Of a stretch of DNA of 64,000 nt, positions 5,471 to 46,375 are shown one piece after another. Source of the stretch: Ruditapes philippinarum (lineage: Eukaryota); contig NW_026864100.1 of the NCBI RefSeq assembly GCF_026571515.1, positions 124,001 to 188,000 of the forward strand, given 5' to 3'. Each line of letters opens with the position of its first letter. The first letter of the stretch is position 1. Under the pieces are notes generated by a model, which was not told the DNA's origin, searched no databases, and worked only from the letters and a program-made list of their open reading frames with translations. The translations under genes and the position numbers were made by a program.

Positions 5471-6288
5471 AAATTGAAACAGAGAGTAATTGAATGAATA
5501 AATGAATTGTTTTTTTTTTTTTAATAAAGAAATCAATATAGTGTATAAAAATCCTAATAAAGGAATGAATGAAATATTAAGAGTATCTTTTGAGTGATAA
5601 AAATTTTATTAAATGTATTCCTTTTAAAAATGCTTCTGCCTTTGTTGTTGTAAAGCTATGTGCCTCCAGATAAGCCAAAATATTTCTATAAAATCAGACT
5701 TAAAAATTATTACTTAGACTTTAGGAATAAAACAATATGAATGATTCAAGTTATAATTGACATGTTGACTGATTTTTTCAATATAATGACTATATTCCTA
5801 CTGGGTTACTAACACAGTGAGGGCTTTTTTGCACATTTTTACCTCATTTTAGTAATTTATGTGAGTTGTAAGTGCAATTAAAAAGGTGTAAACTGCTTCC
5901 TTTTGGTCATTACACATTATTACACGTTACACATATTTTAAGAGTTTTCATGAAAATAAGCATAAATCTGGAGGCATGCAGCATAAAGTCATATGTTAGG
6001 TAACTTATCTTGTGTTTTTGTTTGTTTGTTTTTATCGAAAACTCTAGATTGCAAAATATTAAAGGGAGATAACCCTAGTATTTCTACCTTTGATCTAAGT
6101 TACATGTCTTTTTTCCCTTTTTATAAAATCATATGGGTATATCAAACAATACATAAATACAACAATAAAACACAGGCAAAATAGAAAACATGGCTCATAC
6201 AGGTTAATTATAAATTTGAAATAGTCTTATAACACATACAATACACTTGGATATTACACTTGGATACAGGCGAAATATATATAACACA

Positions 6289-6880
6289 CGTTACACTACT
6301 CAGTATCAGATAGACGGTTACACAACTCAGTATCAGACAGATGATTACACAACTCGGTATCAGACAGATGATTACACAACTCGGTATCAGACAGATGGCT
6401 ACACAAAACAGTATCAGACAGATGATTACACAACTCGGTATCAGACAGATGGTTACACAAAACAGTATCAGACAGACGGTTACACAACTCGGTATCAGAC
6501 AGATGGTTACACAACTAAGTATCAGACAGATGGTTACACAACTCAATATCAGACAGATGGTTACACAACTCAATATCAGACAGATGGCTACACAACTCAA
6601 TATCAGACAGATGGTTACACAACTCAATATCAGACAGATGGTTACACAACTCAGTATCAGACATATGGTTACACAACACAGTATCAGACAGATTGTTACA
6701 CAACATAGTATCAGACAGATGGTTACATAACACAGTATCAGACAGATAATTACACAACTCAGTAACAGACAGATCGTTACACAACTTAATATCAGACAGA
6801 TGGTTACACAACTCAGTAACAGACAGATGGTTACACAACACAGTATCAGACAGATGGTTACACAACTCAGTATCAGACAG
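6289..6880. repeat. 27-bp minisatellite, about 22 copies
   Basis: Unit GGTTACACAACTCAGTATCAGACAGAT. It lies just past the sulfotransferase stop codon (putative 3' UTR) and explains five repetitive ORFs in the track. Confidence 0.95.
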
Positions 6881-6894
6881 GTGGAATTAAGTGG

Positions 6895-9014
6895 TTAATG
6901 AGGAGCAATTGTAGAATAATTAAACATTTTAAAATCGAATTTGTAAATGTCAACAATTTGTGTCAAAGTTTCATTTCTTATTTTCTTGTATGCGTCTACT
7001 AACGCTTTATAACGTTGTCGTTTCATTTCTGATGACGTCATTTTATTTCTTTTTATAGCAGCAAGTATAACTTCTGAGACATAAGATGTGTTGTCATACT
7101 GACCGCTACTATTAAACAGTTTTCTCGGAAACTTAATTGTAACTTTCAAGTACCCTTGTATTTTAAAAGCGGTCCATATTCTTTGTATTAATTTTTGGCC
7201 ACACACACATGTTCCATTTTTCGTTATCTTATTTCTATTGAGGACTGTTTGGACGATTCCTGGTATAGTTGTTTCAATTTTGAGTTCATGTAACGCTGAT
7301 AGAATCGTGTCAAGCTTTTCATCAGGTACACTGAAAGCTTTCAATGCCTGCTCTACGTCTTTTGAAAAGCTTTCTTGTTTCACAAGTATATAAGCGCTTA
7401 CATCACACGGACGACATAGATTATAAATTGGTGCCCAGTGGCGATTTAATGTCTGTCCCATTTCCACTTTAAGAATGATAAAATCCAAGAACTCCTTAAA
7501 TGTGATGTCATCAGGACACAATTTGTTTACCCATGTCGGCCTAAGCTGCAGAATATTTTTGTTGACATCGTCATCTAAAAACAAATATGATCTGTCTATG
7601 AACGCTGAAAACAGACGACTAAACGGGTCACGTGACACAATGACGGACAGAGATTTTTTTCTTACATGACTCTCTATCTTTACAGTAAATTTATTTGCCA
7701 AATAGTGAACAAGCGTTCTTCCTTCCGAAAAAAGTTCTTCTGTATTTTCCACTCCGTTCTCTAAAATGTTAAAGATTTGCATCCAAAATGTCGATCCTGA
7801 CTTTGTCACCTTACAATATGTAAAGTTGTAAGTTGGTGAATAGTAGTAAAAAGTACTGTTTTTACCTTTGTATATAGGATTCCGAAATATGTCTTTTTCT
7901 TTGCAAACTTTGTTGATTCTATTTATTCTCCGACTTTGCTCTGATGGATATATTTGATTGAGATAAGTCATTTTTTCAGTTGTGCTAAAGCTTTGTGCTT
8001 GAAGTTTTTTGTTCAAACGTGTCGATGTTACTTTCTGAATGAGATCTATAGTTTATATAAGAAGCAATAGAAACAAGTTAAAAACAAGATAAAGTGTTAT
8101 TGACATAACGGGACTGGAAATATTTTTTCAAAATCAATGTTCCATTTTATGCAGTTCAATAACTTGTGTGCAAATGTTCAGATCATTCGCTCATTATGTT
8201 TTTCCAGAACTCTTATTGTGAAATAAAAAGCGCTGAAACGCTTTTCACAGAATAGCATAATTAAGCATAATTAAGTGAAATTCTTTTTAAAAGAGAATTT
8301 TTTTAAAAAGCTTTACTAAAAACGGATTCCTAATTCCTAGGACTTTATAACCTATATCAGGCAAAAGACGCAAGAACAATCCTACTTAGGACTTAGGAGA
8401 AGAATTTCATAAGACATGTTGTCTTTCATTCTAATCCTGTTTTTTAAGAATATTTGAATTGCTCTCTGTATATTGTGAATTATAATATTGTATATATTCT
8501 GAGAAATAAAATATGTTTAAACTAAACTTACGAAAACAAAAAGAAAAAGATGAAAATCTGAGTATCAAAAAAGATAAAGAAAAAAACCCTTTCATGTCCA
8601 GCCCCAACCCTAACTTTAACCTCTCACCCTTGCAGTGGATTATGCAGTATTACAAAATCACACAAAATTATCACTACGCTTGTATGCATATCTTCAAGTC
8701 AACAAATCTTGAAACAATCACTTTGAACTCAAAATCATCTTTAACAAATAAACAACAGAATAATTGATAAAAAAAATCCTCATTCCACCATAGCGTCGTG
8801 ATAATAAGTAAAACTTTCTATATAAAGCATTCACGTTTTTAGATAAATTAATATATAAATCGTTCGATAAAGGCTGATTATTATTGTGATAAAGTTTGAA
8901 ATGAAAAAAGTAACCTTGAGTGAAATTCAACGTTCCGCTGTATTCCAACAAAAAACAAGCTAGGAACGTGACTAACACCGCGGCACCAACAACCACACGT
9001 GTCCTAATATCATA
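6895..9014 (-). CDS. Carbohydrate sulfotransferase (Sulfotransfer_2 / CHST8-14-like), type II Golgi membrane protein
   Basis: Main exon 8045-6895 has the 5'-PSB motif YCKVTKSGSTFW, the 3'-PB motif RDPFSRLFSAF, and HW..CRPC. Upstream exon 9014-8915 encodes a hydrophobic anchor (VVVGAAVLVTFLACFLL). The phase-1 junction CAAG|gttact ... tatag|AT joins the two in frame. Start codon unresolved. Confidence 0.88.
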
Positions 9015-14022: not shown

Positions 14023-14569
14023 AATTATAAAGGACAGTTCAAAAAATTCAGTACAAGTAAAGTTAAGCTGTAGTTTGGTCTAAAGCTGAACAGTGACATT
14101 TAGATGAGTTTATCAAGTGATGGAATAAATGCATGTTTGTGACGGAAGTCGTGCTGCCTGGGAACTCTCAAATTAATACAGATGTTGATCAACACTTCTC
14201 AATGACGTGAGTCAATAATAGCGTTTACAGGAAATATTGAATAACAATTGTACGGTGTTGTCCCAGTGCAGTTGAAAAACAATCATTTTCTAAGGTATGC
14301 GCAACGGAAGTGACAAATGAAAAATGCTCAGCAAACAGAGTGACATATCGCATTCTATTCTGCGAGAGTTGATGATATTTAGATTGATGAAAGTAATTGT
14401 AGAGTATAATTGATTAGATATGATTATTAAGCTGGACAGTGATATAAAAGAAAGCCACACTTAAGTGGCCGGACAGAATACAACAAACTCTGGTACAGTA
14501 AATTGTGATTCAAAATAAAACTTGTTTTCAAAACTGAATGGAATTCACATGCATGTATTGTGGAAAAAC

Positions 14570-15613
14570 ATGTCAAACTCTACAAATGGATCACGACGAA
14601 GTGACCTTGGATTTATTGCTGACCAGCTTGACCTTTATGCACCGCCAATTTTAATTTTGATTGGAGTAACATGTAACAGTCTGGTTATAGTAATCATGAG
14701 AACCCGTTATTTTAGTAATGTGTCAACATCACTTTACATGTGTTTTAATGCAATCGTTGATAATATTACACTTCTCGTAGCATTCCCCTTGCACTGGCTT
14801 CACGTGAGTTTTCCTGAGCTGATTTATAGAGGAGATTATGAAGATTACATATGCAAAGTAACATATTTCATAGGAGTGAGTACGAGTAATATGGGTATTG
14901 TTCTCACAGCGGCAATGACATTGGAGCGAGCTGTAGCTATAAAGTTTCCTCTTAAAGCTCCAAGTCTCTGTACGAAACGGAAGGCTAAATACGTCATGCT
15001 GGGACTTGTGATGTTTGTAGCATTAAAGGATATTCATTACCTTCTAAAGTCAAAAATGGTTCCTAAAGATTTTTTAGCATATCTTTGTGAAATTGACATA
15101 ACTAATAACATACTGCGGGTGTATGTGAACAGAGTTTGGCCCATTTCTCAGAACATATTTTTATTTCTATCCTTCTTCGTAATAATCTTTAGTAATTTGA
15201 TAATAACGAAAAGTGTTCGCGATGCTGACAAGGCCGCTTTCACTCTTCAATCTGAAGATATGAACGGCAGAAATATCAGAGCAACAAGTAATGGTCTTCA
15301 TAGAAAGTCGTCCAAGTCACGACAGCTTACTGTAATGTTGATACTGGACTCTGTCACGATCATGGTATGTACGCTACCGCTTGCATTATACGACATTATT
15401 CGGCCAGATTTCGTCGATGCTGATGTCGGACATATTGTATTTTGTGTGATATTCTACCTTGTGTATGTAAACAGATGCGCTAACTTTTTCCTGTATTGCA
15501 TTACGGGATCAAGGTTTCGTCAAGCGCTAAGGAGCATTTGCTGCGGTCGCCGTTTTGGAAGAAAAGACTCGATTTATTACATTCACCAGACAAGGGAGTC
15601 AATGTATCATTGA
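14570..15613 (+). CDS. Class A GPCR, peptide-receptor type (FMRFamide/sex-peptide receptor-like), intronless CDS
   Basis: Seven hydrophobic segments, N-glycosylation sites (NST, NGS), TM3 MTLERAVAIKFPL, TM6 CTLP, TM7 NRCANFFLYC..GSRFR. ATG at 14570 preferred over the TTG start in the ORF track. Confidence 0.92.
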   Translation: MSNSTNGSRRSDLGFIADQLDLYAPPILILIGVTCNSLVIVIMRTRYFSNVSTSLYMCFNAIVDNITLLVAFPLHWLHVSFPELIYRGDYEDYICKVTYFIGVSTSNMGIVLTAAMTLERAVAIKFPLKAPSLCTKRKAKYVMLGLVMFVALKDIHYLLKSKMVPKDFLAYLCEIDITNNILRVYVNRVWPISQNIFLFLSFFVIIFSNLIITKSVRDADKAAFTLQSEDMNGRNIRATSNGLHRKSSKSRQLTVMLILDSVTIMVCTLPLALYDIIRPDFVDADVGHIVFCVIFYLVYVNRCANFFLYCITGSRFRQALRSICCGRRFGRKDSIYYIHQTRESMYH

Positions 15614-24173: not shown

Positions 24174-24384
24174 AATTATGTAATAAAATGAAAATGATAA
24201 ATTGTTTGGCATATTTCTTCCTTCATTTACATTAATTTTATATTCATTTTACTCAGATATTTAGAATCAAAGTTTATTAACGATCATTAGATTGTTACGG
24301 CTGACTTGTATGAGGTAAGTGAAAGGCACGAAGATATAATTTAGGAAGAACCATCGGCCATCAAAGGCCAGCTAAATGCTTCTT

Positions 24385-25761
24385 TGATGACGCTGTTAAT
24401 GTCGATGTTGACGATAGGGATGATGATTACGACGACAATGATGTTGATGACGATGTTGATGACACTGAGGATAATGTTTATGACGCCTATGATGATGATG
24501 TTGATGATAATGATGACACTGAGGATAATGTTTATGACGCCTATGATGATGATGTTGATGATAATGATGACACTGAGGAAAATGTTTATGACGCCAATGA
24601 TGATGATGATGATGATGTTGATGACACTGAGGACAATGTTTATGACGCCTATGATAATGATGAGGAGGACACTGAGGGTAATGTTTATGACGCCTATGAT
24701 GATGAAGATGATGATGATGTGATGATGATGACACTGAGGATAATGTTTATGACGCCTTGATGATGATGATGACACCGAGGATAATGTTTATGATGCCTCT
24801 GATGATGATGATGACGACACTGAATACAATGTTTATGACGCCTATGATGATGATGTTGATGATGATGACACTGAGGATAATGTTTATGACGCCTTTGATG
24901 ATGATGATGACACCGAGGATAATGTTTATAACGCCTATGATGATTATGATGACACTGAGGGTAATGTTTATGACGCCTATGATGATGATGATGATGACTA
25001 CGAGGATAATGTTTATGACGCCTTTGATGATGATGATGATGACACTGAGGATAATGTTTATGAACGCCTATGATGATGATGATGACACTGAGGATAATGT
25101 TTATGACGCCTATGATGATGATGATGACACCGAGGATAATGTTTATCACGCTATGATGATGATGATGACACCAAGTATAATGTTTATGACGCCTATGATG
25201 ATGATGTTGATGATGATGACACTGAGGATAATGTTTATGACGCCTATGATGATGATGATGATGACACTGAGGATAATGTTTATGACGCCTATGATGATGA
25301 TGATGACACTGAGGATAATGTTTATGACGCCTTTGATGATGATGATGACACCAAGGATAATGTTTATGACGCCTATGATGATTATGATGACACTGAGGGT
25401 AATGTTTATGACGCCTATGATGATGATGATGATGACTACGAGGATAATGTTTATGACGCCTATGATGATGATGATGACACTGAGGATAATGTTTATGACG
25501 CCTATGATGATGATGATGACACTGAGGATAATGTTTATGACGCCTATGATGATGATTATGACACTGAGGATAATGTTTATGACGCCTATGATGATGATGA
25601 TGATGACACTGAGGGTAATGTTTATGACGCCTATGATGATGATGATGACACCAAGGATAATGTTTATGACGCCTTTGATGATGATTATGATGACACTGAG
25701 GGTAATGTTTATGACGCCTATGATGATGATGATGACACCAAGGATAATGTTTATGACGCCT

Positions 25762-25795
<34 letters not shown>

Positions 25796-26345
25796 GGACA
25801 CTGAGGGTAATGTTTATGACGCCTATGATGATGAAGATGATGATGATGTTGATGACACTGATGATAATGTTTATGACGACAATGATGATGATGATGACAC
25901 TGATGATAATGTTTATGACGCCTATGATGATGATGATGATGACACTGAGGATAATGTTTATGACGCCTTTGATGATGATTATGATGACACTGAGGGTAAT
26001 GTTTATGACGCCTATGATGATGATGATGACACCAAGGATAATGTTTATGACGCCTTTGATGATGATTATGATGACACTGAGGGTAATGTTTATGACGCCT
26101 ATGATGATGATGATGACACCAAGGATAATGTTTATGACGCCTTTGATGATGATGATGATGACACTGAGGATAATGTTTATGATGCCTATGATGATGATGA
26201 TGACTACGAGCATAATGTTTATGATGCCTATGATGATGATGATGATGATGATGACACTGAGGAAAATGTTTATGATGCCTATGATGATGATGATGGTGGT
26301 GGTGATGATGATGATGATGATGATAATGATGATGATGATAACGTG
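24385..26345. repeat. (GAT)n-derived compound minisatellite, ~39-48-bp unit
   Basis: Unit (GAT)n-GACACTGAGGATAATGTTTATGACGCCTAT, roughly 40 copies. Confidence 0.95.
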
Positions 26346-27860
26346 ATGTTGATTTTTATGACAACGTTCAACGTTTATGAAAATAATGAAATATGCTTTA
26401 AACATTTCATCACAGAGTTTATTAGTTAAAGATCTTATCTATTGAAGAATACAGTCATTTTAAACATAAAATTCATTTTTTGAAGAAGAAAAAAGATTGT
26501 CAGCTTACATATTTCAATCACCTAATTTGTAATATTGTAGAAAATACATTTTGATGATTCATCATTTAATGTACCTATATTCAAGTACAATTATATACTT
26601 AAAATGCTTAGATAACAATTAACACAAAAATCATTATCTCCTGTTCACCGGCCAACAACCTAACATGGCTATTGTATAGTTTTGTTTAGTTAGGCCACCT
26701 GGACTATTGGATGGATGGCTATTAAAAGTATATTGATCAGATAATGGTTTCTAATGAAAGTGATAATATTTAATATTTTACAAATTATCACAAATAATAA
26801 ACAGAATTCTAGTTAGTTAGGTACAGGGAAGGCACAAGTTTGATATGAACGCCTGAAATGGATAATTTGTAAGGTATAAACATGTTTCATATTTAGATAT
26901 TATCTACATTAAATTTGAAAATACATGTATTTTGAGGCGACATTTTGTCTAGTCAACTATACGGTAAAAAATTAACGGATGATTTTCTATACTATTTAAA
27001 CTACCTTTATGAAAATAGAATTAATTTTCGACAATATATTATACGCTATAAGTTGCTTATTCCATATCCATTAGATTATAATTTAAGATTGCTCTATTAC
27101 TTTGAATTTACCTTACATAAAACGAACCCTATAAATAAATTTATTGCTATTTAAAAAAAATATATATATGGCATTTCTAATATTAAAATGATGAATAATG
27201 TGGTGCTAAAATATGATAAAAGCAATGACAACACACAGATCATTTTTATACTTTTCATATTAGATATTTCAGGCGATGTGAAATGTTTATCATTTCTTTG
27301 CATAATTTACGATGCCTTAGCTAAATATGAAAGTGCTGGGGAAAATTATAAACAAATTAAATTTAAATTGCAGCTTGAGGTAAAATATCAAACTATCATA
27401 AGAAAGATCTTAAATGAACTTGCATTTGTACATTTTCATTTTTAATATATTTATTATCAAAAAATGCCTGCGAGTGAAACAAGGGTTGTTACATATGCAT
27501 TTTTGATCAACTAAAATTGAAATATTTTAAACAGTCATGTATAATTATATTTATAACCATATGCACATATAACTGGTAATTAAAAAAACAATTAACACAG
27601 CAACTACGCACTGCTATGGCCAAATTCTTAGATTGGTAAAACAATGAATTGTTTTTGCTCATTTGAAATACAACATCATAAAAATCACTGTTCATCTGTC
27701 GCTGTCAGCTTAGTATGTCTTATTTTCCTCCAAGTCCTTTCTTTTTAAAACAGGTTAGTGTCATTCAGCATGTAATTGGAACTGTAATATTTCATTGGCT
27801 GAAAGACACAAAAAAAGCTCTGAATGTTATACCATCTGGGCCAAATCGATCCAATAAATC

Positions 27861-27940: not shown

Positions 27941-29693
27941 TAAAAAAATCTTTATAAAAACATTTAAAAGTGGGAGAGCTTAGTTAAATTTCGTCACAAA
28001 GTCTTGACAGTTCTTTTTATATGTTGAACACAGCTTTAAAACGCATATATGATATATATGTTAATAAGTCTTTCATATATAGACAGTTAAAATAATTATG
28101 ACAAAAATAATCATTTGTATACAAGCCAAACTACTACTTAGTTTACATTTTGCTACATATGACTAATAATTTTACTTTCAGCGTTACATTCATTTGCCCT
28201 TTCTGAAGAAGGAAAAAATTATTTATTATTTAATTTACAATTATGTTAATAACATGTTAAAAACTATAACACATGCTCAGATTATGATCTTTTGTTAAGG
28301 TGACTTATAGGTCCTATGGGCCGGGTGTTCATCTTTGTGTATTTATGTGTATGTATATACGTATAACACATGTCACTATAATAAAGAATTTACTTACTTA
28401 TTTCTGAGGCAAAATGTGCCTTTCACTCCAAACTCTGGGTTGGAATTAAATGCTTGACTATATTGTTCATACTGATAGCATTTGATGCATCGCTAATTCA
28501 TTTACAGACATTTGAGAAACATTTCAGCACATTGGGGTCAGCCCTCGTACACGATGGTGAATAAGGAAATCGTTTGATTTCTTTGAATGCTAGTATACAT
28601 AAGCATGCAATAGTCTCTTGGCGAAGTATTTTCCAATATCATTTATAATAAGTCGAGTTGCGAAATCATACGTATAGTAAGTAAATCCGACATCTTTTTA
28701 TTGTGCCTAGATAAACACAATTTCGGTTATTGTTTTACAATAGGTTGGTTGTACATTGAGAGTTCCTTCATTGGGCACAAAGCATCGTTTGGGACACGAC
28801 ACAAATAAAAATTTTAAAAGTAAGTTTTCTTTTCTTTTATTGGTTTATATGAAATACAACGAATGTACAATTTTACACAATGACATAGGCAAGAAATGTA
28901 ATTAATTAGATTTATAATTATCTGAAATTTCACTTACGCTATTCCAAAAATGAAAAAATTCAAACTGTTTAATATTAAGTTCAGTTTCTGTAAATAGATA
29001 TAAATTTTATCCTTATTTTATTTTATCCTCGTTAACGGATATTTCTTCCGTAACCTTTAGCAATATTTGCATTGAAAATAATTTACTTAGTTGAAACTTT
29101 CGTTATTTCTTCTTTTTTTGCTTTCTTCGGAATTCATAGTGCATGCTTTAATTAGTAATAAATGAATATTTGTTTAATACTTTATTATGCTGAAAAAAGT
29201 TTTGATGTAGCAATTTTCAATTATATTTCGTTAAGGTTAATGCTTATTTTGTTAAATATGTTCATTTGTATGTTACATTTTTTACTTTTCCTCTTAGTTC
29301 AATTAAATACAACGCTGGAAAATTTTCTTTTCTCATTGTATGCTTTAGTTATTTAACTACAAAAGTTTAATTAGCCTTTCGCACTACGCATTATTTCCAA
29401 CATTGCTCAGCTGTTTTAAGATTCATTTAATTCAAATGTGATAAAAATCTAATTCAACATTTTCAGGTATTCCAGACATATAAACATGATGTAGCAAGAA
29501 AATTATGACAGTCCTACGGAGATCTAACTTAAATGGATAATTTTATCATTAAATTTTATCAACCGTTCGAACAAATTGAATAGCGGAGAGGTGAAAATTG
29601 TCTGTTATGTAACAAGTGTTTCTTAGCCATAAATTACTAGTTTCAAAGAATTTTTCAGGAACATTATTAACTAAAAGCGTTTTCAAACCAAAC

Positions 29694-30758
29694 ATGAATG
29701 CAAGTGACGTAAGTGATTTGGACATTTTCAGCATGCGATATAGTAAATGGCATGGTTACATAAGCTTGCTTATTTGTGCTCTTGGGATACCACTCAATAT
29801 TTTAAACATTATTGTTCTTACAAGAAGTAAAATGCGCACTGCCATTAACTTTATCCTCACGTGTATCGCGATATGCGACATGACAACAATGTTGTCTTAC
29901 GTACCCTTTGCTGTCCACTTTTATTGTCAGTATTCTGCTAATTCAATTTTACCTGAAAAGAACAGTTTGCAATGGATGAATTTTCTGTTGGTACATCTAA
30001 ATGTAACGGCCACTGCTCATACAATTTCAATTTGGCTTGCCGTTGCACTGGCAATAATTCGCTATCACCAGATACATTCCCCGGCACACGGCAGCATAAC
30101 GCACATGCGTAGAATTATACGTGCTCGAGTGATAACAGGAACCATTGTTATATTTTCTATCGTGATATTAATACCGAATTATTTGTGTCACAAATTAAAA
30201 CTCCACCAGAGTCGTGATAATTCAACGTTATATGTTTTTGAAGAATGGCGTCTTGGTTCGGCACAAGTCGACACAATACGGGTGATAGCGTTGGTAATGT
30301 ACAGTTCATTGGCAAAGCTGCTCCCATGTGTGATGATCATAATATATGGCGGACTTCTTCTAAGGACGTTACATAAAACGATTCAACATCAACAACAACT
30401 AGCAGCGACGTCGTGTTTAAACTCAAAGAGAAGTAACAACCCTTCTAGAACGACAACCATGTTACTGATTGTGTTTGTCCTCTTCATATTTACAGAACTG
30501 CCTCAAGGGATTCTTATCTTATGTTGTATATTTATAAAGAATTTCTTTGAAAGAACCTACATTCCTCTCGGCGACGTAATGGATATTTTTACATTACTTA
30601 ACAATAGTATAAACTTTGTACTGTATTGTACTATGAGTCAGGAATTTCGACGTGCGTTTGTAGAAGTGTTCTGCTCATCGTCTAGAAATGATGATCGGAA
30701 TAAATATCCAGCATCGTCCGCGGTGTACCAAAATAACATAAAAACAAGTTATATATAA
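29694..30758 (+). CDS. Class A GPCR, myosuppressin receptor / DMSR-1-like, intronless CDS
   Basis: HGYISLLICALGIPLNILNIIVLTR, HTISIWLAVALAIIRY, KLLPC, RTTTMLL...TELPQG, NNSINFVLYCTMSQEFR. ATG at 29694 (MNAS); acceptor tttcag| at 29466 indicates a spliced 5' UTR. Confidence 0.92.
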   Translation: MNASDVSDLDIFSMRYSKWHGYISLLICALGIPLNILNIIVLTRSKMRTAINFILTCIAICDMTTMLSYVPFAVHFYCQYSANSILPEKNSLQWMNFLLVHLNVTATAHTISIWLAVALAIIRYHQIHSPAHGSITHMRRIIRARVITGTIVIFSIVILIPNYLCHKLKLHQSRDNSTLYVFEEWRLGSAQVDTIRVIALVMYSSLAKLLPCVMIIIYGGLLLRTLHKTIQHQQQLAATSCLNSKRSNNPSRTTTMLLIVFVLFIFTELPQGILILCCIFIKNFFERTYIPLGDVMDIFTLLNNSINFVLYCTMSQEFRRAFVEVFCSSSRNDDRNKYPASSAVYQNNIKTSYI

Positions 30759-34189: not shown

Positions 34190-35100
34190 TAATGTACTCA
34201 ATATAAGTGATCATCCTATGAAGTTTGACAGTTGTAAAACTGTTAACAATATTAAGGTCATTTGATATTGACCTTTGACCTTGTGACCCCAATATAGATA
34301 TGGATCTTTTATTCAATATAGGCAATCATCCTATGAAGTTTGAACACTGTAAGCCAAATGGAACTTGTGTTATGCTCCAGAAAGCACAATTTTCAGTGTT
34401 AAGGTCATTGTGACCCTGACCTTTGATCTTATGACCCTAAAATCAATAGGGGTCATGTATTGGACATGGCTGTTCATCCTATAAAATTTTACAGCTGTAG
34501 GTTGATTAATACTTAAGTTATTGAGCAAAAACTGTTTTCAGTTTTAAGGTAATAGTGACCTTGACCTTTGACCTTGTGACCCCAAAATCAATAGAGGTCT
34601 TCTACCCAATATTGACAATCATCCTATAAAGTTTGAACACTGTGAGCCAAATGGAACTAAAGTTATGCTCAAGAAACCACAATTTTCACATTGTGACCCT
34701 GACCTTTGACCTTATGACCCTAAAATCAATAGGGATAATGTATTGGACTATAAAATTTTACAGCTGTAGGTTGATTAATACTTAAGTTATTGAGCAGAAA
34801 CTGTTTTCAGTTTTAGGAAATAGTGATTGACCTTGACCTTTCACCTTGTGACCCCTAAATCAATAGAGGTTTTCTACCTAATATGGACAATCATCCTATG
34901 AAGTTTGAATATTGTGGGCCATATGGAACTTAAGTTATGCCCCGGAAACTGTTTTCAGTTTTAAGGTTACAGTGACCTTGACCTTTGACCTTGTGACCAC
35001 TAATCAATAGAGGTCTTCTACACAATATGGACAATCATCCTATGAAGTTTGAATATTGTGGGCCAAATGTAACTTAAGTAATGCTCCAGAAACCAAATTG
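34190..35100. repeat. ~145-bp tandem array (tgaccttgacctttgacc family), probably HINE-internal
   Basis: About six units with the motif recurring near 34262, 34411, 34556, 34693, 34829 and 34973. Confidence 0.8.
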
Positions 35101-36304: not shown

Positions 36305-39300
36305 TCAACACCTGTCATCAAAAATATCCCACTGTAAAATTTCAGGTAAGTTGCTAATTTTCACTCTCTTTTCCAGCACTGGAGGCACATCAGATTTATT
36401 TGGATCAAAACATCTTTTATGAGATGTTTTTGAATGACAAGGCATTGTAACTCCATTTCTGTATCGTTGTAGGCAATCTTCGTCAAGTAATGTATGGAAA
36501 TCTGCTTGATAATTATCAAATTTATAGTCATCAATAAGCCCTGTGCAAAACAATTTGTAATTCAAAATAAACCAGAGAAAAATCACAATCCTGACGTCAA
36601 TATCTCCTTCATCAAACAAGTCCAATAAATGACTTCCAAGGAGTACATCATTCTCACAGTCATACATAAACACAATTAGCTTTTCATTCTTTATCCCTAT
36701 ACTAGGAATCAAATTATTTTGCATTTTTCCAGAATTTTGTCTACCTTGTAAATATGAAAAGACAAATGTTTTTACAACCATCTGAGAATATTCATTATCC
36801 AAAACCTTGTCACCTGATTCTGACACTGAAACATCATCTTCAGATGACTGTCCAAATGAGACAGGCAATTCTACGTCAGTATTGTTCATGATAAGTAGGT
36901 CAACATTTCCATGCCACCCATCCTCCAAACCTGAAACGAGAAATTCAACAGTCTTAACCTTTAACTTCATAAAGACATGTCTTGACAGCTTTTCATCCCC
37001 CCTCCCCTTTTTGAGGCCTCAAATAGTGAAGAATTTAAGATTGAGCATGCTGTTACAAAGGCTTTGGTCCAGTCAAAAATTTGTGCCAAGTTTGATCAGC
37101 ATTAAAGCATTTTTTATAGTTTCATAGCAGTTTATCTTGTAACAAGAGGCTTTTCAATGAAAACAGCCATTTTTCACAATATGCTCATGCAGTAAAAGGT
37201 TAATTGACTCAAAGTTTACCTAGTGTGGTAATCAACTTATCTTCATTCACAAAATGACAGAGGACAATGGGACTACCTAAGTAGTAAGGGCATAAACACA
37301 TGGTGCATATAATTGCTATATTTATCTCACTTGATAATCAAGTTCTGGTTATATCGGTTCCTGAGATGGGATAGAATTGGACAAAGTGATTCCTATTAAG
37401 CCTCTGCACACATTATAAATAATCACATGACTTGGTTATATGTCTAAGATAGTGATAAAGTGTGCCAGAATCTTAGAATATGATAACAAAAACAGTTAAA
37501 GCAATTTTTTTTTTTAAAAATGGGTTTATTTAAGGTCGCTGCCGGAAAGCCCATATGGGTGACTGTACACTCAAGTTGGGCCATCCTAGAGCGTCCCGCC
37601 GAGATTTTTTCGTCGATTTTTTTCCAGCTTATATTGGTGGAGGAAGACCCCAGGTGCCCCTCCGTGCATTATTTCATTCACGAGGGGGCAACCGGGTAGA
37701 ACCACCGACCTTCCGTTAGCCAGCTAGATATTAAAGCAAAATAAACAACAAAATACTAATAGTGACCAAGGAGCAAGCAACTTTTGGCCCCAGGGGCATA
37801 TTTCATTCTAATTTGCAGACATTCACATGGTAATGTTACATGCTAAATATCTTAGCTCTTTGCATTGTAATTTCACAAAATTAAGACTGAAAATTTAATG
37901 TGTTTTCTCATACAAGACTATATCAACTAAGTGGTCACAGGGGTGTGGCCAACATTGACCCAAGGACCATTATTAATACCAATTTTTAATTTCACTTCCA
38001 ATAAGGCAATGCTTCATGTCAAATATCTAAACTTTAGGAAGAGTAGTTTCACCAATGTAAGACTTAAATGTGTTTTCCAGCACAAAAATATATTAATTAA
38101 GTGACCCCCCCCCACAAGGGCAGGGGGACCTAAGGGGCATGATAAATACAAGTTATTTTATGGTCCATATAGAGATAGTACAGTCAAATCAATGTAAGCT
38201 TTGGGCACACAAGTATCAGTATAAATTATAATGATGTGTTTTTCATATATTTATAGTCAACAAATCAAATGACCCCAAGCACTTGGCCAATATTGATCCA
38301 AGATTTATTAAATTAATACCAGTTTTGTTAAGGTCAATAAGACAATGCCACATGCTAAAAATCTAATCTGTAGACATTGTAGCTTCACACAGGAAACCCA
38401 AATCTGTGTTCTGCACACAATCTCATTATAAGAAATATTTCTTCCAAAATTTTTTAGTTGTTTCTATTTATTGCTTCAAAATTTTGAAATTGATACAAAA
38501 TGACTGTGACCTTGACCTGAGAAAGGTCACACCTATTGTCTGCAAATTACCTTATTATGGTTAACATTTCTGCCAAGTACTAGTACTTTCAATTTCCTTC
38601 CACCAATATAAAAGATACAGACCAGACAATCTGATAAAAATTAGCTCTAAATAAAGCTCTGCTTTTAGATCTGATCATGACCAAATACAAAGAAATTTCA
38701 GGTGATCTTTCACACAGTCAATCATCGGCGAGCTTTCATTACTTTGAAAGCGATGCGGTGTCTAGGAAACCAATACTGAGTAGCTAATTTTCAAAATTTT
38801 GAGAACAAACATGGCAATGTCCATATAGCTGATAGGTACATGTAAGCTGGGGAAACAATCTAGCCCATTAAAAATTGACATTATTTCAAGTTAATTCGTT
38901 AAAAATTACTTGAAAAAAAAATTTCTACCAAAAATCAACAATTTGTTTAACTTCTACAGATAACAGTATTTTGATACTTCTTCTAATGCCTATCTGTAAA
39001 AACCGGTTTGTTTGCATGGCTAAAAATAGCTTTTTCAGGAAATCCGAAATATAAAGAAGGCGAAACATATTTGGTCATCATCAGATCTACATGAAAGAAA
39101 AAAGTAGATCTGAACTAGAGTCAGTTTGACCAGAAATATACTCTTTGATTTAATGGTATAAGAGAAGTAGTCCGGGCAAAAATAAAAATCATTAAAGGGC
39201 CATAACTCTGACAAAAATCACTGAACTGGAAAAGGCTGCAATATGCACAACTAACTAGACTTCATACTGATCATTTGTTTGGATGAAATTTCACCAGTAG

Positions 39301-42300
39301 CTTTTGAGGAGTAATTTTGTGACTGATGGACAAATAGATGACAGAGAAGTGATCCCTATAAAAATAATACATGAAAAAATATAATAAATAAGTTTCAAAT
39401 AAATTCCAAGTTTAACAAGAGGGCCATGATGGCCCTGAGGTCGCTCACCTGTATATAGCCCCCCCCCCCGGCCCAATTTTTACCCAAGGGCTTTTATTTG
39501 TTTATTTGAACAGACTTGGTAGACACCCATAAGAAGATGTTTCATGCAAAACATCTAAGTTCTAGCTCATTGGGTTTTTTAAAAGAAGATTTTTTAAGTT
39601 TTTACTATACACATATAGTTAAAAACAATGACACCCCTCGGGCAGGGCCAGTTTTGACCCCTGGGCTTTTATTTGAACAAACTTTGTAGATATTTACTTA
39701 AAGATGTTTCATGCTTAATATCTAAACTCTAGTTATTTGGGTTTTTTCAAAGAAGATTTTTAAGTTTTTGCTATGTATATAAGGAAAATCAATGACCCCC
39801 GGGGCGGGGCCAGTTTTGACCCCAGGGCTTTTATTTGAACATACTTGGTAGACACCCATTAGAACATGTCTCATGCTAAATATCTTAGCTCTAGCTCTTT
39901 GGGTTCTTTAAAAGAAGATTTTATAAGTTTTTACTATATGCATATAAGGAAAATCAATGACCCCCTGGGGAGGGGCCAATTTTGACCCCAGGGCTTTTAT
40001 TTGAACAAACTTGGTAGACATTCACTAGAAGATGTTTCATGCCAAACATCTAAGTTCTAGCTCTTACGATTCTTTAAAAGAAGATTTTTTAAGTTTTTAC
40101 TATATGCATATAGGGAAAATCAATTACCCCCCAGGGCGGGGCCAATTTTGTCCCCAGGGCTTTTATTTGAACAAACTTGGTAGACATTCACTAGAAGATG
40201 TTTCATGCCAAATATCTAAGCTCTAGCTCTTTGGGTTCTTTAAAAGAAGATTTTTTTAAGTTTTTACTTTATGCATATAGGGAAAATCAATGACGCCCTG
40301 GGGTGGGGCCAATTTTGATCCCAGGGCTTTTATTTGAACAAACTTGGTAGACATTCACTAGAAGATGTTTCATGCCAAATATCTAAGCTCTAGCTCTTAC
40401 AGTTCTTTAAAGGAAGATTTTTTAAGTGTTTACTATATGCATATAGGGAAAATCAATGACCCCCCGGGGCGGGGCTAATTTTGACCCCAGGGCTTTTATT
40501 TGAACAAACTTGGTAGACACTCACTAGAAGATGTTCCATGCCAAATATCTTAGCTCTAGCTCATACAGTTCTTTAAAAGAAGATTTTTTAAGTTTTTACT
40601 ATATGCATATAGGGAAAATCAATGACCCCCCGGGGCGGGGCCAATTTTGACCCCAGGGCTTTTATTTGAACAAACTTGGTAGACACTCATTAGAAGATGT
40701 TTCATGCCAAATATCTAAGCTCTAGCTCTTAGGGTTGTTTAAAAGAAGATATTTAAAGATTTTTCTTTCGGTTGCCATGGCAACCAGAGTTCTGTATGGA
40801 ATTAAATTCTTTGAACAATTTTTAAAGGTGACCACCAAAGGAACATTCCTGTGAAGTTTGGATGAAATTGGCTCAGTGGTTTATGAGGAGATGTCATTTA
40901 AAGCAAAAGTTTACGGACGGACGACGGACGGACGACGGACGGACGCCGGACGAAAAGCGATCACAAAAGCTCACCCTGTCACTTTGTGACAGGTGAGCTA
41001 AAAATTAATGGAGATAATTTTGGAAATACAGGAGCCAGAGTTATAAATCTTATCACATATAATTATATGACTAACAAACTTTTTTTTTTTAAGTCTGAAT
41101 TACAGAAAAAGTAAGGAAAATTTTGTTTGTCAGGGAAATACTGTAATTTGAAATATTGATACTAGAGTTATGAACCTTTCATACATTATACTTGTATTTT
41201 ATGGGAGTTGATATGAAACTTAAATTTAAATTTAAAAAATTATATCCTTTGAAAACTAAAGCAGATAACAATTTCTATAAAATAATTTTTCCAAATTCAA
41301 GGAATATTTCTTAAAATATTAATGCTAGAGTTATGAATCTTGTCACACATGATGTGGGTGATTATAAGTAACAAATATTTGAAGGTTGAAGTGCATACTG
41401 TACAGCAAAAATAACATTTTTTAAAATAATATCTTTATGAATCTTGTCACACATCATGTGGGTAAAGATAATGATTATATACTTGAATGTTGAAGTAGAT
41501 ACCTTAGAAAATGACGCTTACCTATATGAATACATAAAATTTGTCCAATAAAGGTACAAAGCTAAGGCTTGTTAAAAAGATGTTTTATCCAATTTCTAAG
41601 TTGAAAAAGAGGCATAAATATGCAAAAAAGGAAACAAGAGTTATTGAACTTACGCCAATAATGTTAGATTATCACAGAGAAGAAGCATGTGAAGTTTCAA
41701 TCCATTCCCTTCAGTAGTTATGGAGATACCAGCTTACACGCAAAAACAACCAAGAATAAGTCTAAAAAGGGGCATTAATATGCAAAAAAGCAAATCAGAG
41801 ATATGAGACTTGTGCCAGTCATGGTAGATAATCACAGAGAACAAGAAGTTTTAATCCATTCTTTTAGTTATTGAGATACTAGCTTCCACGTAAAAACTTA
41901 ACCACAGAGACGCCGCCGCGGCCTACACCGGCTCTGACAAATTGGTTACTGCATTAGCTTGAGTATTCTACTTAAAATCTTAGTCCATTGGGAGATAATT
42001 CTTCAAATATTGGCACATGTTTACAAGAGGGCCATGATAGCCCTGAAATAGCTCACCTGTATATAGGACTCCAGGGCAAGCCAATTTTAACCCAAGGGCT
42101 TTAGGGCCCCAAGGCATTCATTTGAATAAACTTGGTAGACACTGACAACATGATGTTTTATGCCACATATTTAAGCTCCTAAGGTCTTTTGGTTTCTATA
42201 AGAAGTTTTTCTTTTCGGTTGCCATGGCAACCAAAGTTCTGCATAAAATTAAACAATTTTTAAAGTTGACTACCACAGGAACATTCCTGTGAAGTTTGAA

Positions 42301-45300
42301 TGACATTGGCCAAGTGGTTTAGGAGGAGATGTGGTTGAACCCATTACGCGATATACATGCCTTTTAACGCCCTTTTCACCCCCCCCCCCTTTTTGTTGTC
42401 TCAAATGGTGAAAAAATGCCTTATTTAGGCCCCCAACACTTGTCTTTGTTTGAGAAATGTTGTTAAAGAAAGTGGCCACTTTTTTGGCGCGGCCCCCCAA
42501 CCAAAAGATACATCAGGGGGTTGCCAGAAGAGGGAAGTGCCGCCTACTGTTTGGGGGGTTTGAAGGGGGGCGGAGCCCCCCTCATCGCCAAGAAAATTTT
42601 GGACTTGTGAGAGGCTAAATGACCCCAGATTGATCATAAGGTAACGTGTATCCAACGCTGAAAAGCATCTGACTCTATCTCAATCCATTGAGAAGTTGCA
42701 GCACTTTGAAATCAATTTTGATGGAAAAATTCAACGCAAAATAGTGAGTTTTGGCAATTTTGAGATGTCCCCTCGTTGCGATGGTAACAGAAAATTTAAG
42801 CCTGAGCATGTTGTTGCAAGGGCAATGGTCCAGTCAACATTTGTGCCAAGTTTGATTAGTGTTGAAGCAGTTTTTATAGTATTATAGCAATTTGAACATG
42901 TAAAGGGAGACTTTTCAATGAAAACAGCCATTTTTCACAAAATGCTCATGAAGTAATGGGTTAAAGAAAAAGTTTACAGACGGACGACGTACGGACGCCC
43001 GACAACAAGCAATCACAAAAGCTCACCATCAGGTGAGCTAAAAACCATGTTTGTTCTGTTTACAGTTAGATGGGCCTCTAACCCTATTCTGTAGTGCAGA
43101 TGGATGGATAGATGGACAGTTCAGTTACATGTACTATTGATATAAAAAGAATAATTATTAAGGAAAATTCTAAATTCAAGGAGATATAATTCTGAAAATA
43201 TTGCTCCTAGAGTTATGAACCTTGTCACATAAGATGTAGTTCATGATATATTTGAAGTTTAAAGTTGATACCTTAAGAAATGAAAAAGTTGTAATAAAAG
43301 TATTTCACTGCACCAAAACTTTAATCTCAAACCTGGATGCGGACGCTTTGGGCAAGGACAGCTCTCCATAAATTTTGTATAGTCAAGCTAAAAATCATAC
43401 TCATTTCCCATATCTTACCAAATGAAGTATCTCCACATTTGCCAGAATAAGAGTGATCCACATCACAACATTTTACATACTGTATTCCTGGGTATGAATC
43501 AATCATATATGTCTTCTCATCAACAAGGGGCATCAGTAAATGTTCCGCATATCGCCTGGCAACGGTAGCTTCACATCCTTCCTCTCCTCTTTCTGCCAGT
43601 ACAGAATGATCTACAAATATTAAAATATAAAAACTTAAAAACTAAAACTTTCAAAGAACACCCCAAAATGACAAAGCTGAAAAAATGTTGCAGAAAAATA
43701 GCTGCATTATACAAAAATTGTAGCATGTACGGAATATACAGGGAATATATTATACATTGGGTAACTGACAATGGTTATCGAGTCACAATTTTCATTCTAT
43801 ACAGTAATTTGGATTGAAGACACCACTCTTATTCACCTTATTAAAAACTAAAACCAACATTTTGTACAAGAACTAGTCTTAATATTTTGCTTATATTAGT
43901 ATGGTTTAGTGTCTTACATGTGACCAAGTTTAAACAATATTTCATAAGGTTTTAAAAGTCTTTTTTTACCTACAATTCAATTATGATATTTAAGTGAGTT
44001 TTCAAAATACAACATGTAGTAGAAAACAATTTTATGGTCAAGTCATGCGACTAGTATGTAATAACATGTAAAAATATTTTGACGTTCAGTTGCAGAATAA
44101 ATTTAACCATGATGCAACAAGTGTGAATCAAGAAGATGAGCTACTCACATAACCTTAAGCATTTGTACTTGTGATTTCTCTGTTCCAGTCATTGAGAATA
44201 ATTATTTATAAAATGATAACTAAAAACAATGTACAAATACAATTTATTGTTCCAATAGGGTAATGAAATTAAATTAGTGTCACAGATTTTTTTCTATGCT
44301 CAGTTCTGTGGCACACAGTGCAAAGTGAATTTCAAAAGAATGGCATTTGAGTCCTAATCAGGCTGCACAATTTTCCTCACACTGACATTTGGTGCCAAAT
44401 TGGGGATCTTGATGGTACATATCAGAGCCAAAGTAACATTGTTCTTAGGATATCTCTTTTGTGTGGATTTTATTATTGTACAGCAACTTACCATGCAATA
44501 ATAATCTGGGCATTTTCACCCTACACCAGTGGTAAAAATAAGACCCCATTTAACATAAACTCTCTTTTCCCCAATTCCAAATAAAATATTCACAACTGCT
44601 GCTAAATAAATCAAAATTTTTGAAAATTTGAGAAGGATTGAACTGTTTAGATTTTTTTTTCAAAGACATGACATGTTATATTATCACAATAAATGAATAA
44701 ACTTGAAAGCCATCCATAAAAACCTTGGTTGTATATCAAGATTTAAGAATTTTTTAAAATCTACAAAAATGCTGCCTAATTTTTCCAAATTAAAACCAAT
44801 TGCTTTTTTGGCTACTTTGTGAAAAGGCCAATTATTATTATAGTAATTCTAATATTAGACAAAATTAATAAACTCAAATTATCATATAAATGAAGTTATA
44901 AATTATATAAAGCATTGATGTCTATGTATCTCAGTTGGGTGTCAAGTTTAGTTTTTTACTAGTTACCCACTTATAACATTTCTTATCTTAATTCTTACTA
45001 ACAGGTGAACTTTTTTTACAATATATCTGGGGTGACAAAATCATAATTTTTCATATTGCCAAGGTTGTCCCATAAAAGCAAAACATTCCAGTAAATTTAA
45101 ATGATTAAATTTAGAATTATTTTCAATATAAAGCGTGTTTGGTTTAAACATATTTATTTAAGCTCGATTGCAAAACAAGTTCTTGCAACTTATATTAATC
45201 ACTTTCGAGTCTGCTTCCTGGAACCAACCAGTACTGGTGTCGTGACCAGCGTAGGGCTCGAACCCATGATCTAGTAGGTTGAGTCTCAGGCAGACACCTT

Positions 45301-46375
45301 AATTATAACCACTAGGTCACTGCTCCCCAGTCCCCTTAAAATAAAGCATGTAAACATAATACAGGGAAGTCAAAGACTTTGGCTTGCCCAGCTATAGACT
45401 ACATGTGTATATTTTAAAAAAAATCAAATAAAAAAACAATTAAAAAAAATATAGAATTCTATACCTATCAATGAAATTTTGAGTGTCAGTTCTAGTTAGG
45501 CGCCGCCATTTACAAAGTAACTCAATGATAAAAGGCGGTGTATTCCAATAATGGAAGAAATCTCAACTTTTCAGATTAATAAAAATTGTCGAGTGTTCCG
45601 AGTGAAAACGGAAGCGGGTACATTTAATACCAAATGACACCTTTAAAATGGAAAAATGAAAGGATTTTTACGGACTTCCCCGTTCATAGGCTTTGCCTAA
45701 TTTCATATTAGTGAATGAATTAACCTGTGAAGGCATCGCCACATCTCACGGTGATAGATCACAGTATATAGGTACTTTTGGCATGGTTTTGCTGTTTGCA
45801 GGGAAAATTCCTAACATAATACTGAGACTGAGTTTGAGGCAACCACGTGAAAAATGTGGGTTTCATAAGTCCAAATATGACAAGTTGAACAAACTGAATA
45901 ACTTCAATAAGGGACAAGTTGACTGAACTCAAAATACCATAAATGGTGTCTGACTTTTATGGGAAAACTAACAAAAATAGACAAGTTGAACAGTACCACT
46001 ACTAGACAGAAATTGCAGCAATCTTTGTAAAGCTCTCCGTTGAAATTTATCAGCTGGTACTCTTGGTGTACTTGCCCTATCAGCCAAAAAGTCTTGAAGA
46101 ATTTTGTAGCCAGTCAAAAAGAAACAACCAATTGGAGCCATATATTTGCTTTCTTTAGTTTCTATGCCCATCGTTTCAACCTTGCAAGTTGCATTATTGA
46201 AAGCAACATCAGTTCTTGCATCGACTGCTACCACCCTAAGACATCTTAAAAACATATAGTCATTTCCACTGGCAAACGCTTGCAAAGCATTTTCTATGCG
46301 AATTTTCAATTTTTCGTTTCCTTCTTCTTCCAGAAAATCTTTAAAATATTCTGTTTTGTTTTCTTCAGCATCCAT
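36305..46375 (-). CDS. Uncharacterised 398-aa protein, 3 exons, possible PD-(D/E)XK-like C-terminal domain
   Basis: Exons 46375-45997, 43610-43419 and 36930-36305; both introns GT-AG, phase 1; total 1197 nt open. Junction reads GDTSFG|LEDGWHGNVDLLI...SQMVVKTFVFSYLQ...LIPSIGI...MYDCENDVLL. Confidence 0.8.
36958..37199. mobile_element. TTAA-specific MITE (piggyBac-like)
   Basis: ttaa|cctttaacttcat ... atgcagtaaaagg|ttaa; 3' half homologous to 42790-42960. Confidence 0.65.
37506..37730 (-). mobile_element. 5'-truncated SINE (V-SINE-like)
   Basis: T-run tail followed by ggtggaggaagaccc...ggtagaaccaccgaccttccg, resembling common mollusc SINE bodies. Confidence 0.5.
38666..39089. mobile_element. 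TIR-bounded MITE
   Basis: tagatctgatcatgaccaaata / tatttggtcatcatcagatcta inverted repeat (21/22). Confidence 0.7.
39414..41004 (-). mobile_element. Full HINE/pearl-like element with about 8 x 166-bp satellite units (BIV160-like)
   Basis: aacaagagggccatgatggccct hairpin, gctcacctg subterminal IR, tandem units, (GACG)n, agctcacc...ggtgagct-aaaaa end. Confidence 0.88.
42023..43044 (-). mobile_element. Second HINE of the same family, single repeat unit, interrupted by a MITE
   Basis: Same terminal modules as 39414-41004. Confidence 0.8.
42340..42960. mobile_element. piggyBac-like non-autonomous element
   Basis: cccattac...gtaatggg TIRs followed by ttaa (left flank ttgaa); splits the HINE. Confidence 0.75.
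45136..45328 (-). mobile_element. tRNA-derived SINE
   Basis: Minus strand ggggagcagtgacctagtggtta...gggttcgagccc; homologous to 55190-55382. Confidence 0.8.

What the first reader, a model, noticed from the sequence alone, without database searches (positions are those of the whole stretch)
36305..46375. Three scattered ORF fragments splice into a 398-aa protein with a restriction-endonuclease-like signature
Seen: three separate ORF-track fragments join through two phase-1 GT-AG introns into one uninterrupted frame. It has a helix with E (CEATVARR), a Cys/His patch (CCDVDH..KC), then GDTSFG..WHGNVDLLI, an acidic linker, and SQMVVKTFVFS followed by strand-like LIPSIGI and LIVFMYD. Inference: this order resembles the PD-(D/E)XK fold (E-helix, D-strand, ExK, Q-helix) of Crinkler-type REase effectors. 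The ExK position looks degenerate here (ESGDK), so it could be an inactive or atypical nuclease, possibly an innate immune effector.
Basis: partly seen in the sequence, partly recalled or inferred. Interest (0 to 1): 0.72.

Follow-up and report, generated by a model that had tools for sequence, protein, structure and literature searches.

The report
Bivalve family of restriction-enzyme-like proteins
This three-exon clam gene (first splice seen in public runs, second inferred) belongs to a large, unnamed bivalve family predicted to fold like bacterial restriction enzymes; this copy lacks part of the likely cutting motif, so it probably binds nucleic acid rather than cutting it.

The parts
45997..46375 (-). 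Exon 1 coding part (codons 1-126 plus 1 nt): helical/beta N-terminal region with the family motifs L.h...NA...F..A.C, F..G...L and AL..LL.FL; lacks the family's N-terminal NLS-like motif
43611..45996 (-). Intron 1, GT-AG, phase 1, 2386 nt
   Evidence: joint in 4 of 4 laid runs
43419..43610 (-). Exon 2 (192 nt): first core helix, Cys/His patch, GDTSF
43570..43572 (-). E140, inferred helix acidic residue of the active site; a non-synonymous variant stands here in 2 of 4 runs
   Evidence: E or D in 35 of 47 homologues; variant
43465..43542 (-). H150 ... C174-C175, inferred metal (zinc) site
   Evidence: H 43, C 42, C 44 of 47 homologues; binding not tested
36931..43418 (-). Intron 2, GT-AG, phase 1, 6488 nt, holding a 166-bp tandem array at 39501-40764
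   Evidence: inferred; array
36305..36930 (-). Exon 3 (626 nt with stop): WHGxxD strand, acidic linker, Q-helix, IPxIG and FxYD strands, C-terminal helices
36899..36901 (-). D201, inferred catalytic-motif aspartate (the D of PD)
   Evidence: D in 44 of 47 homologues
36806..36820 (-). ESGDK (228-232), next to the four-residue gap where close paralogues carry E-V-K
   Evidence: the same short form in a 95% identical protein from another source, P0001
36782..36784 (-). Q240, start of the second core helix (family QxxA[QE]TIVFSFLQ)
   Evidence: Q in 37 of 47
36359..36370 (-). KRVK (378-381), possible C-terminal nuclear localisation signal shared by the close clade
   Evidence: basic motif in 8 of 10 close-clade rows against 2 of 15 others (found after the fact, no shuffle control)

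Best explanation
The gene encodes a member of a large, unnamed bivalve protein family that is predicted to have the restriction-endonuclease (PD-(D/E)XK) fold; this copy lacks the family's ExK motif and is likely a catalytically dead or weakened, likely nuclear, nucleic-acid-binding protein. Shown: gene structure (intron 1 directly), family size, conserved residues, loss of ExK here, purifying selection. Predicted: the fold, from a homologue's model. Inferred: intact members cut DNA or RNA in the nucleus with E(helix)-D-ExK and a metal ion, as DrdV does with E25/D64/E79/K81; the family turns over by birth and death, as conflict (anti-virus or anti-transposon) families do; dead copies like this one are kept as binders, decoys or partners of active paralogues, as the two repurposed endonucleases mL37/mL65 form a pseudo-dimer.
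Confidence: 0.5

Rival explanations
1. This copy is an active but atypical nuclease: E140 and D201 bind the metal and K244 on the Q-helix supplies the lysine in place of the lost ExK.
For: E140, D201 and Q240 are kept. DrdV has an extra active-site lysine, K94, after its ExK. Some restriction enzymes move the acidic or basic residue to a helix (recalled). ExK is missing in over half of the family although D is near-invariant.
Against: K at 244 occurs in only 4 of 47 homologues, Q or E in 41. E140 carries a non-synonymous variant in 2 of 4 runs. A second acidic position kept in close paralogues (xxE after the PV strand) is Q here.
Confidence: 0.15
2. The copy is a decaying duplicate without a function: transcribed, still open, but drifting.
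For: It lacks both ExK and the N-terminal NLS-like motif; 13 of 20 listed coding variants in exons 1-2 are non-synonymous; 8 of 72 genome matches hold stops and some paralogues are frameshifted.
Against: dN/dS 0.33-0.50 at dS 0.7-1.1 against 9 paralogues; variants give 7 on 118 synonymous against 13 on 452 non-synonymous sites; frame and splice sites intact; a second source holds the same intact exon 3. These pairwise values average over both lineages.
Confidence: 0.13
3. The whole family is a non-catalytic, structural RNA-binding offshoot of the mL37/mL65 lineage, with ExK a fading relic.
For: mL37 and mL65 are the top structural rows and align over about 190 residues, into the N-terminal region; mL37 is the nearest named cluster in both Atlas searches; mL65/mL37 are described as repurposed endonucleases (passages of PMC8998825).
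Against: No member matched PF07147; profile against the clam's own mS30 exon gave probability 0.1% (weak test); sequence identity 7-8%; DrdV fits with lower rmsd; NLS-like N-termini instead of mitochondrial-type presequences; Atlas scores under 0.9 are leads only; D and E-V-K are kept far above chance.
Confidence: 0.1
4. The family is the nuclease of a mobile element (or was carried by one), and the copies are dispersed insertions.
For: 72 matches on 67 contigs, almost none in tandem; REase domains are linked to transposons (passages of PMC5289972).
Against: Copies are old (28-58% identity), keep two conserved introns, and among 13 close copies similarity ends with the coding exon except in 3 pairs that look like haplotypes or segmental duplicates. 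No viral, phage or prokaryotic relative found. The assembly is fragmented, so clusters could be hidden.
Confidence: 0.07
5. It is a Crinkler-type (CR) REase toxin or effector.
For: [quoted passage not shown]
Against: No Crinkler header, NTPase or kinase Pfam match in 63 members; no such cluster among the Atlas rows shown; single-domain architecture with an NLS-like start.
Confidence: 0.05

Closest known systems
mL37 (MRPL37) and mL65 (MRPS30), PF07147, of the animal mitoribosome
   Same: Best structural match, about 190 aligned residues reaching into the N-terminal region; nearest named Atlas clusters; similar length; nuclease fold reused without full catalytic set.
   Different: 7-8% identity, no PF07147 match; single-copy mitochondrial rRNA binders against a family of dozens of copies with NLS-like starts; many members keep D and E-V-K.
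Nuclease domains of type IIL/IIG and type I restriction enzymes (DrdV, BpuSI, HsdR)
   Different: No methyltransferase, recognition or motor domain; eukaryotic, spliced, acidic insert before ExK, Cys/His patch, N-terminal extension; no sequence-level match.
Crinkler/CR-REase effectors (Zhang et al. 2016; known here only through passages of PMC5289972 and PMC12957317)
   Same: Eukaryotic REase-fold proteins in lineage-specific expansions, nuclear, conflict-related by proposal.
   Different: No header (Ubl/LxLFLAK), NTPase or kinase domain found; no sequence or Atlas link.
Other animal PD-(D/E)XK proteins (FAN1 VRR-NUC, RAP domains of FASTK, DXO/Rai1, R2-type retroelement nucleases; recalled)
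   Same: Same superfamily; include pseudo-enzymes.
   Different: None of their Pfam families matched any of 63 or 25 members.

Membership tests
PD-(D/E)XK superfamily | alpha-beta-beta-beta-alpha-beta core fold | tested here: met
PD-(D/E)XK superfamily | Conserved aspartate on the second core strand | tested here: met
   D201; D in 44 of 47 homologues, at the start of strand 206-208 in the model.
PD-(D/E)XK superfamily | (D/E)xK motif in the family | tested here: inconclusive
   54 of 117 rows against shuffle maximum 18, but modelled in a loop of pLDDT 62-66.
PD-(D/E)XK superfamily | (D/E)xK motif in this copy | tested here: not met
   Four-residue gap against close paralogues; scored absent.
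PD-(D/E)XK superfamily | Spatial clustering of E, D, E, K around a metal; nuclease activity | not testable with these tools
   Model coordinates are not returned; no assay.
Crinkler / CR proteins | N-terminal header (Ubl with LxLFLAK/HVLV, or CR helical header) | tested here: inconclusive
   No Pfam match in 63 members and no such motif in the alignment; helical CR headers have no profile here.
Crinkler / CR proteins | REase coupled to NTPase+HTH or kinase (the commonest CR C-termini) | tested here: not met
   Full-length members are 330-441 aa and align end to end; no longer relative among 528 candidates (weak); no NTPase or kinase Pfam match.
Crinkler / CR proteins | Match to a CR-REase family profile | not testable with these tools
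   Defining paper and its supplements not held.
PDCD9 (mL37/mL65, PF07147) | Profile match | tested here: not met
   0 of 63 at E<=0.05; the PF07147 search of the genome found only mS30 exons.
PDCD9 (mL37/mL65, PF07147) | Extended structural likeness beyond the nuclease core | tested here: inconclusive
PDCD9 (mL37/mL65, PF07147) | Mitochondrial location and pseudo-dimer | not tested
Transposable element nuclease | Shared element termini around copies | tested here: inconclusive
   No common downstream boundary among 13 close copies; upstream ends not compared; copies may be too old.

The most novel reading that the evidence does not exclude
Bivalves keep and have multiplied a nuclear, partly still active sister family of the 'repurposed endonucleases' mL37/mL65 of the animal mitoribosome, and use it as a restriction-like defence in which active enzymes pair with dead copies such as this one. 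It would be a living example of the enzyme from which two mitoribosomal proteins were recruited, and an animal immune arm built from stand-alone restriction-type nucleases.
Probability: 0.15. Interest if true: 0.85.

Novelty: new variant of a known kind. Interest (0 to 1): 0.58.

Why it matters
Stand-alone restriction-enzyme-fold proteins in dozens of copies per genome are not a recognised part of animal biology (my knowledge; my literature searches found no description). The family has about a thousand clusters at 50% identity, no Pfam entry and no named member among those looked up. If intact members cut nucleic acid in the nucleus, they are candidates for defence against herpesviruses or transposons in farmed clams, oysters and scallops, and a source of new nucleases. 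The structural link to mL37/mL65 would bear on where these mitoribosomal proteins came from. The repeated loss of ExK gives a natural series of enzymes and pseudo-enzymes that can be tested directly.

Full report
Observation. The three fragments are on the minus strand. The open frame alone proves little, since 5 of 6 phase-1 donors tried gave one. The runs are only guessed to be RNA, but a GT-AG joint is what a transcript gives. Intron 2 was not seen directly. Contigs in two runs end at 43417, where the donor and the start of exon 3 share two letters, and go on with letters that did not lie on the stretch. Of 30 exon-3 loci fetched, 26 had a long frame with W[HY]G, and all 26 (this gene included) have AG at the same phase-1 place. 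Exon-2 and exon-1 homologues lie upstream in the same order on 7 and 6 other contigs. Full-length proteins from other sources align across both junctions: P0031 39.6% over 381 columns, P0014 39.5% over 380.

Organism and family. A paralogue frame in G000 (L002) is identical to a protein that NCBI names from Ruditapes philippinarum, so the window is most likely Manila clam. Exon 3 has 72 matches among 111 scored candidates, on 67 contigs; 8 rows hold stops. The count may be inflated: the normally single-copy mS30 gene is present twice. A profile of 25 exon-3 frames finds 997 clusters at E<=0.001 and 604 at 1e-10; I saw only the best 150. Of 30 clusters looked up, 21 carry a name; all are 'uncharacterized' or 'hypothetical' proteins of clams, scallops, oysters or pearl oyster. 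The best Atlas clusters are unnamed, all eukaryotic, commonest Mollusca, with 458, 167 and 116 members. No family library names them. The range outside bivalves is not established.

Active site. Among 47 homologues of at least 330 aa, the positions matching E140 (E or D in 35), H150 (43), C174/C175 (42, 44), D201 (44), Q240 (37) and Q/E at 244 (41) are conserved. The order matches DrdV's E25, D64, E79-x-K81 and K94 (passages of bioRxiv 2021.01.06.425610); the matching is inferred from order, not from coordinates. An ExK shortly before the Q-helix occurs in 54 of 117 rows (60 of 177 rows could not be anchored and were dropped), against 9.75 on average and at most 18 in 500 shuffles; E-V-K accounts for 29. 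Only 12 of 47 carry all three parts, and the model leaves E-V-K in a loop of pLDDT 62-66. On a quick tree of 73 rows (3 of 76 dropped; motif columns not removed; labels by pattern) the state changes 22 times, no fewer than shuffled labels need, with at least 11 changes forced by strong branches: this reads as repeated loss. The window's gene groups with L003, also without ExK, inside a clade that holds ExK-bearing L002, L006 and L008. Here the motif falls in a four-residue gap, and ESGDK matches the stretch after it; a 95% identical protein from another source has the same gap. E140 has a non-synonymous variant in 2 of 4 runs.

Selection and location. Exon 3 against 9 close paralogues gives dN/dS 0.33-0.50; seven other pairs give 0.21-1.07. 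The 20 coding variants listed for exons 1-2 (28 further rows of that table were not shown) are 7 synonymous on 118 sites and 13 non-synonymous on 452. The gene is constrained but changes fast. An NLS-like basic motif stands in the first 40 residues of 30 of 47 homologues, against 6.0 on average in internal windows. This copy lacks it but has KRVK near the C-terminus, as do 8 of 10 close-clade rows against 2 of 15 others (seen after the fact). The proteins are acidic overall, which counts against simple nucleic-acid binding.

Mechanism. Most likely, intact members are metal-dependent nucleases that act in the nucleus, and the family turns over by duplication and loss in the manner of conflict genes; bivalves show such expansions in other immune families (passages of PMC8195603, on TRADD-N). 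This copy has lost the motif but stays under selection, so it likely acts as a binder, decoy or partner of active paralogues. mL65 and mL37 are a precedent: a pseudo-dimer of repurposed endonucleases (passages of PMC8998825). The target, the dimer and the immune role are all inferred; none was tested. Rivals are an atypical active site, a decaying duplicate, a wholly structural family, a mobile-element nuclease and a Crinkler-type effector. Flanks of 13 close copies share no common downstream boundary, and no phage, viral or prokaryotic relative was found.

Comparison and novelty. It works like a PD-(D/E)XK protein by fold and motif order; this copy fails the ExK test. It is not shown to be a Crinkler protein: CR proteins are defined by a header and typically NTPase-REase or REase-kinase C-termini (passages of PMC5289972; PMC12957317), and none was found. 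The defining paper (Zhang et al. 2016) and its supplements were not held and might list this family. It is not a PF07147 member by profile. Searches turned up no description; subscription journals and supplements are outside them. Verdict: real gene, undescribed family of a known fold, this copy a likely pseudo-enzyme; interest 0.58.

Noticed in passing
window 6895-8052 (-): Single long frame of 385 aa with a Sulfotransfer_2 match, E 8e-27.
   Followed up: partly
window 14519-15613 (+) and 29613-30758 (+): Two intronless-looking rhodopsin-family GPCR frames (7tm_1; the second also 7TM_GPCR_Srw).
   Followed up: partly
window 63308-63733 (+): 141-aa frame that reads like a real first exon (MAVKIKMLGL...), no Pfam match.
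   Followed up: partly
window 24300-26440: Long simple repeat rich in GAT/GAC that gives open frames on both strands (Asp-rich, His-rich, Met-rich, Ile-rich); probably not coding.
   Followed up: no
window 6208-6894: Short-period tandem repeat with open frames in several phases.
   Followed up: no
window 39501-40764: 166-bp tandem array, 7.6 copies, inside intron 2, followed by ACGG repeats at 40913-40952; a 145-bp array lies at 34390-35093. Looks like a known bivalve satellite-bearing repeat element (recalled).
   Followed up: no
window 45140-45710 and 43100-43350: Very deep cover in all four laid runs (thousands against about 10 on the exons): abundant interspersed repeats inside the introns.
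   Followed up: no
L045-L048 (G000 C2941, C15217): mS30/mL65 gene is present on two contigs, which suggests retained haplotypes in the assembly; no mL37 exon was found by PF07147.
   Followed up: partly
L034:1050-1110: Five head-to-tail copies of a short GTGGCGAATCGTTA unit just upstream of a paralogue's first exon.
   Followed up: no
L031, L033, L038, L058: Several close paralogues are frameshifted in exon 1 or exon 3, consistent with birth-and-death turnover.
   Followed up: partly
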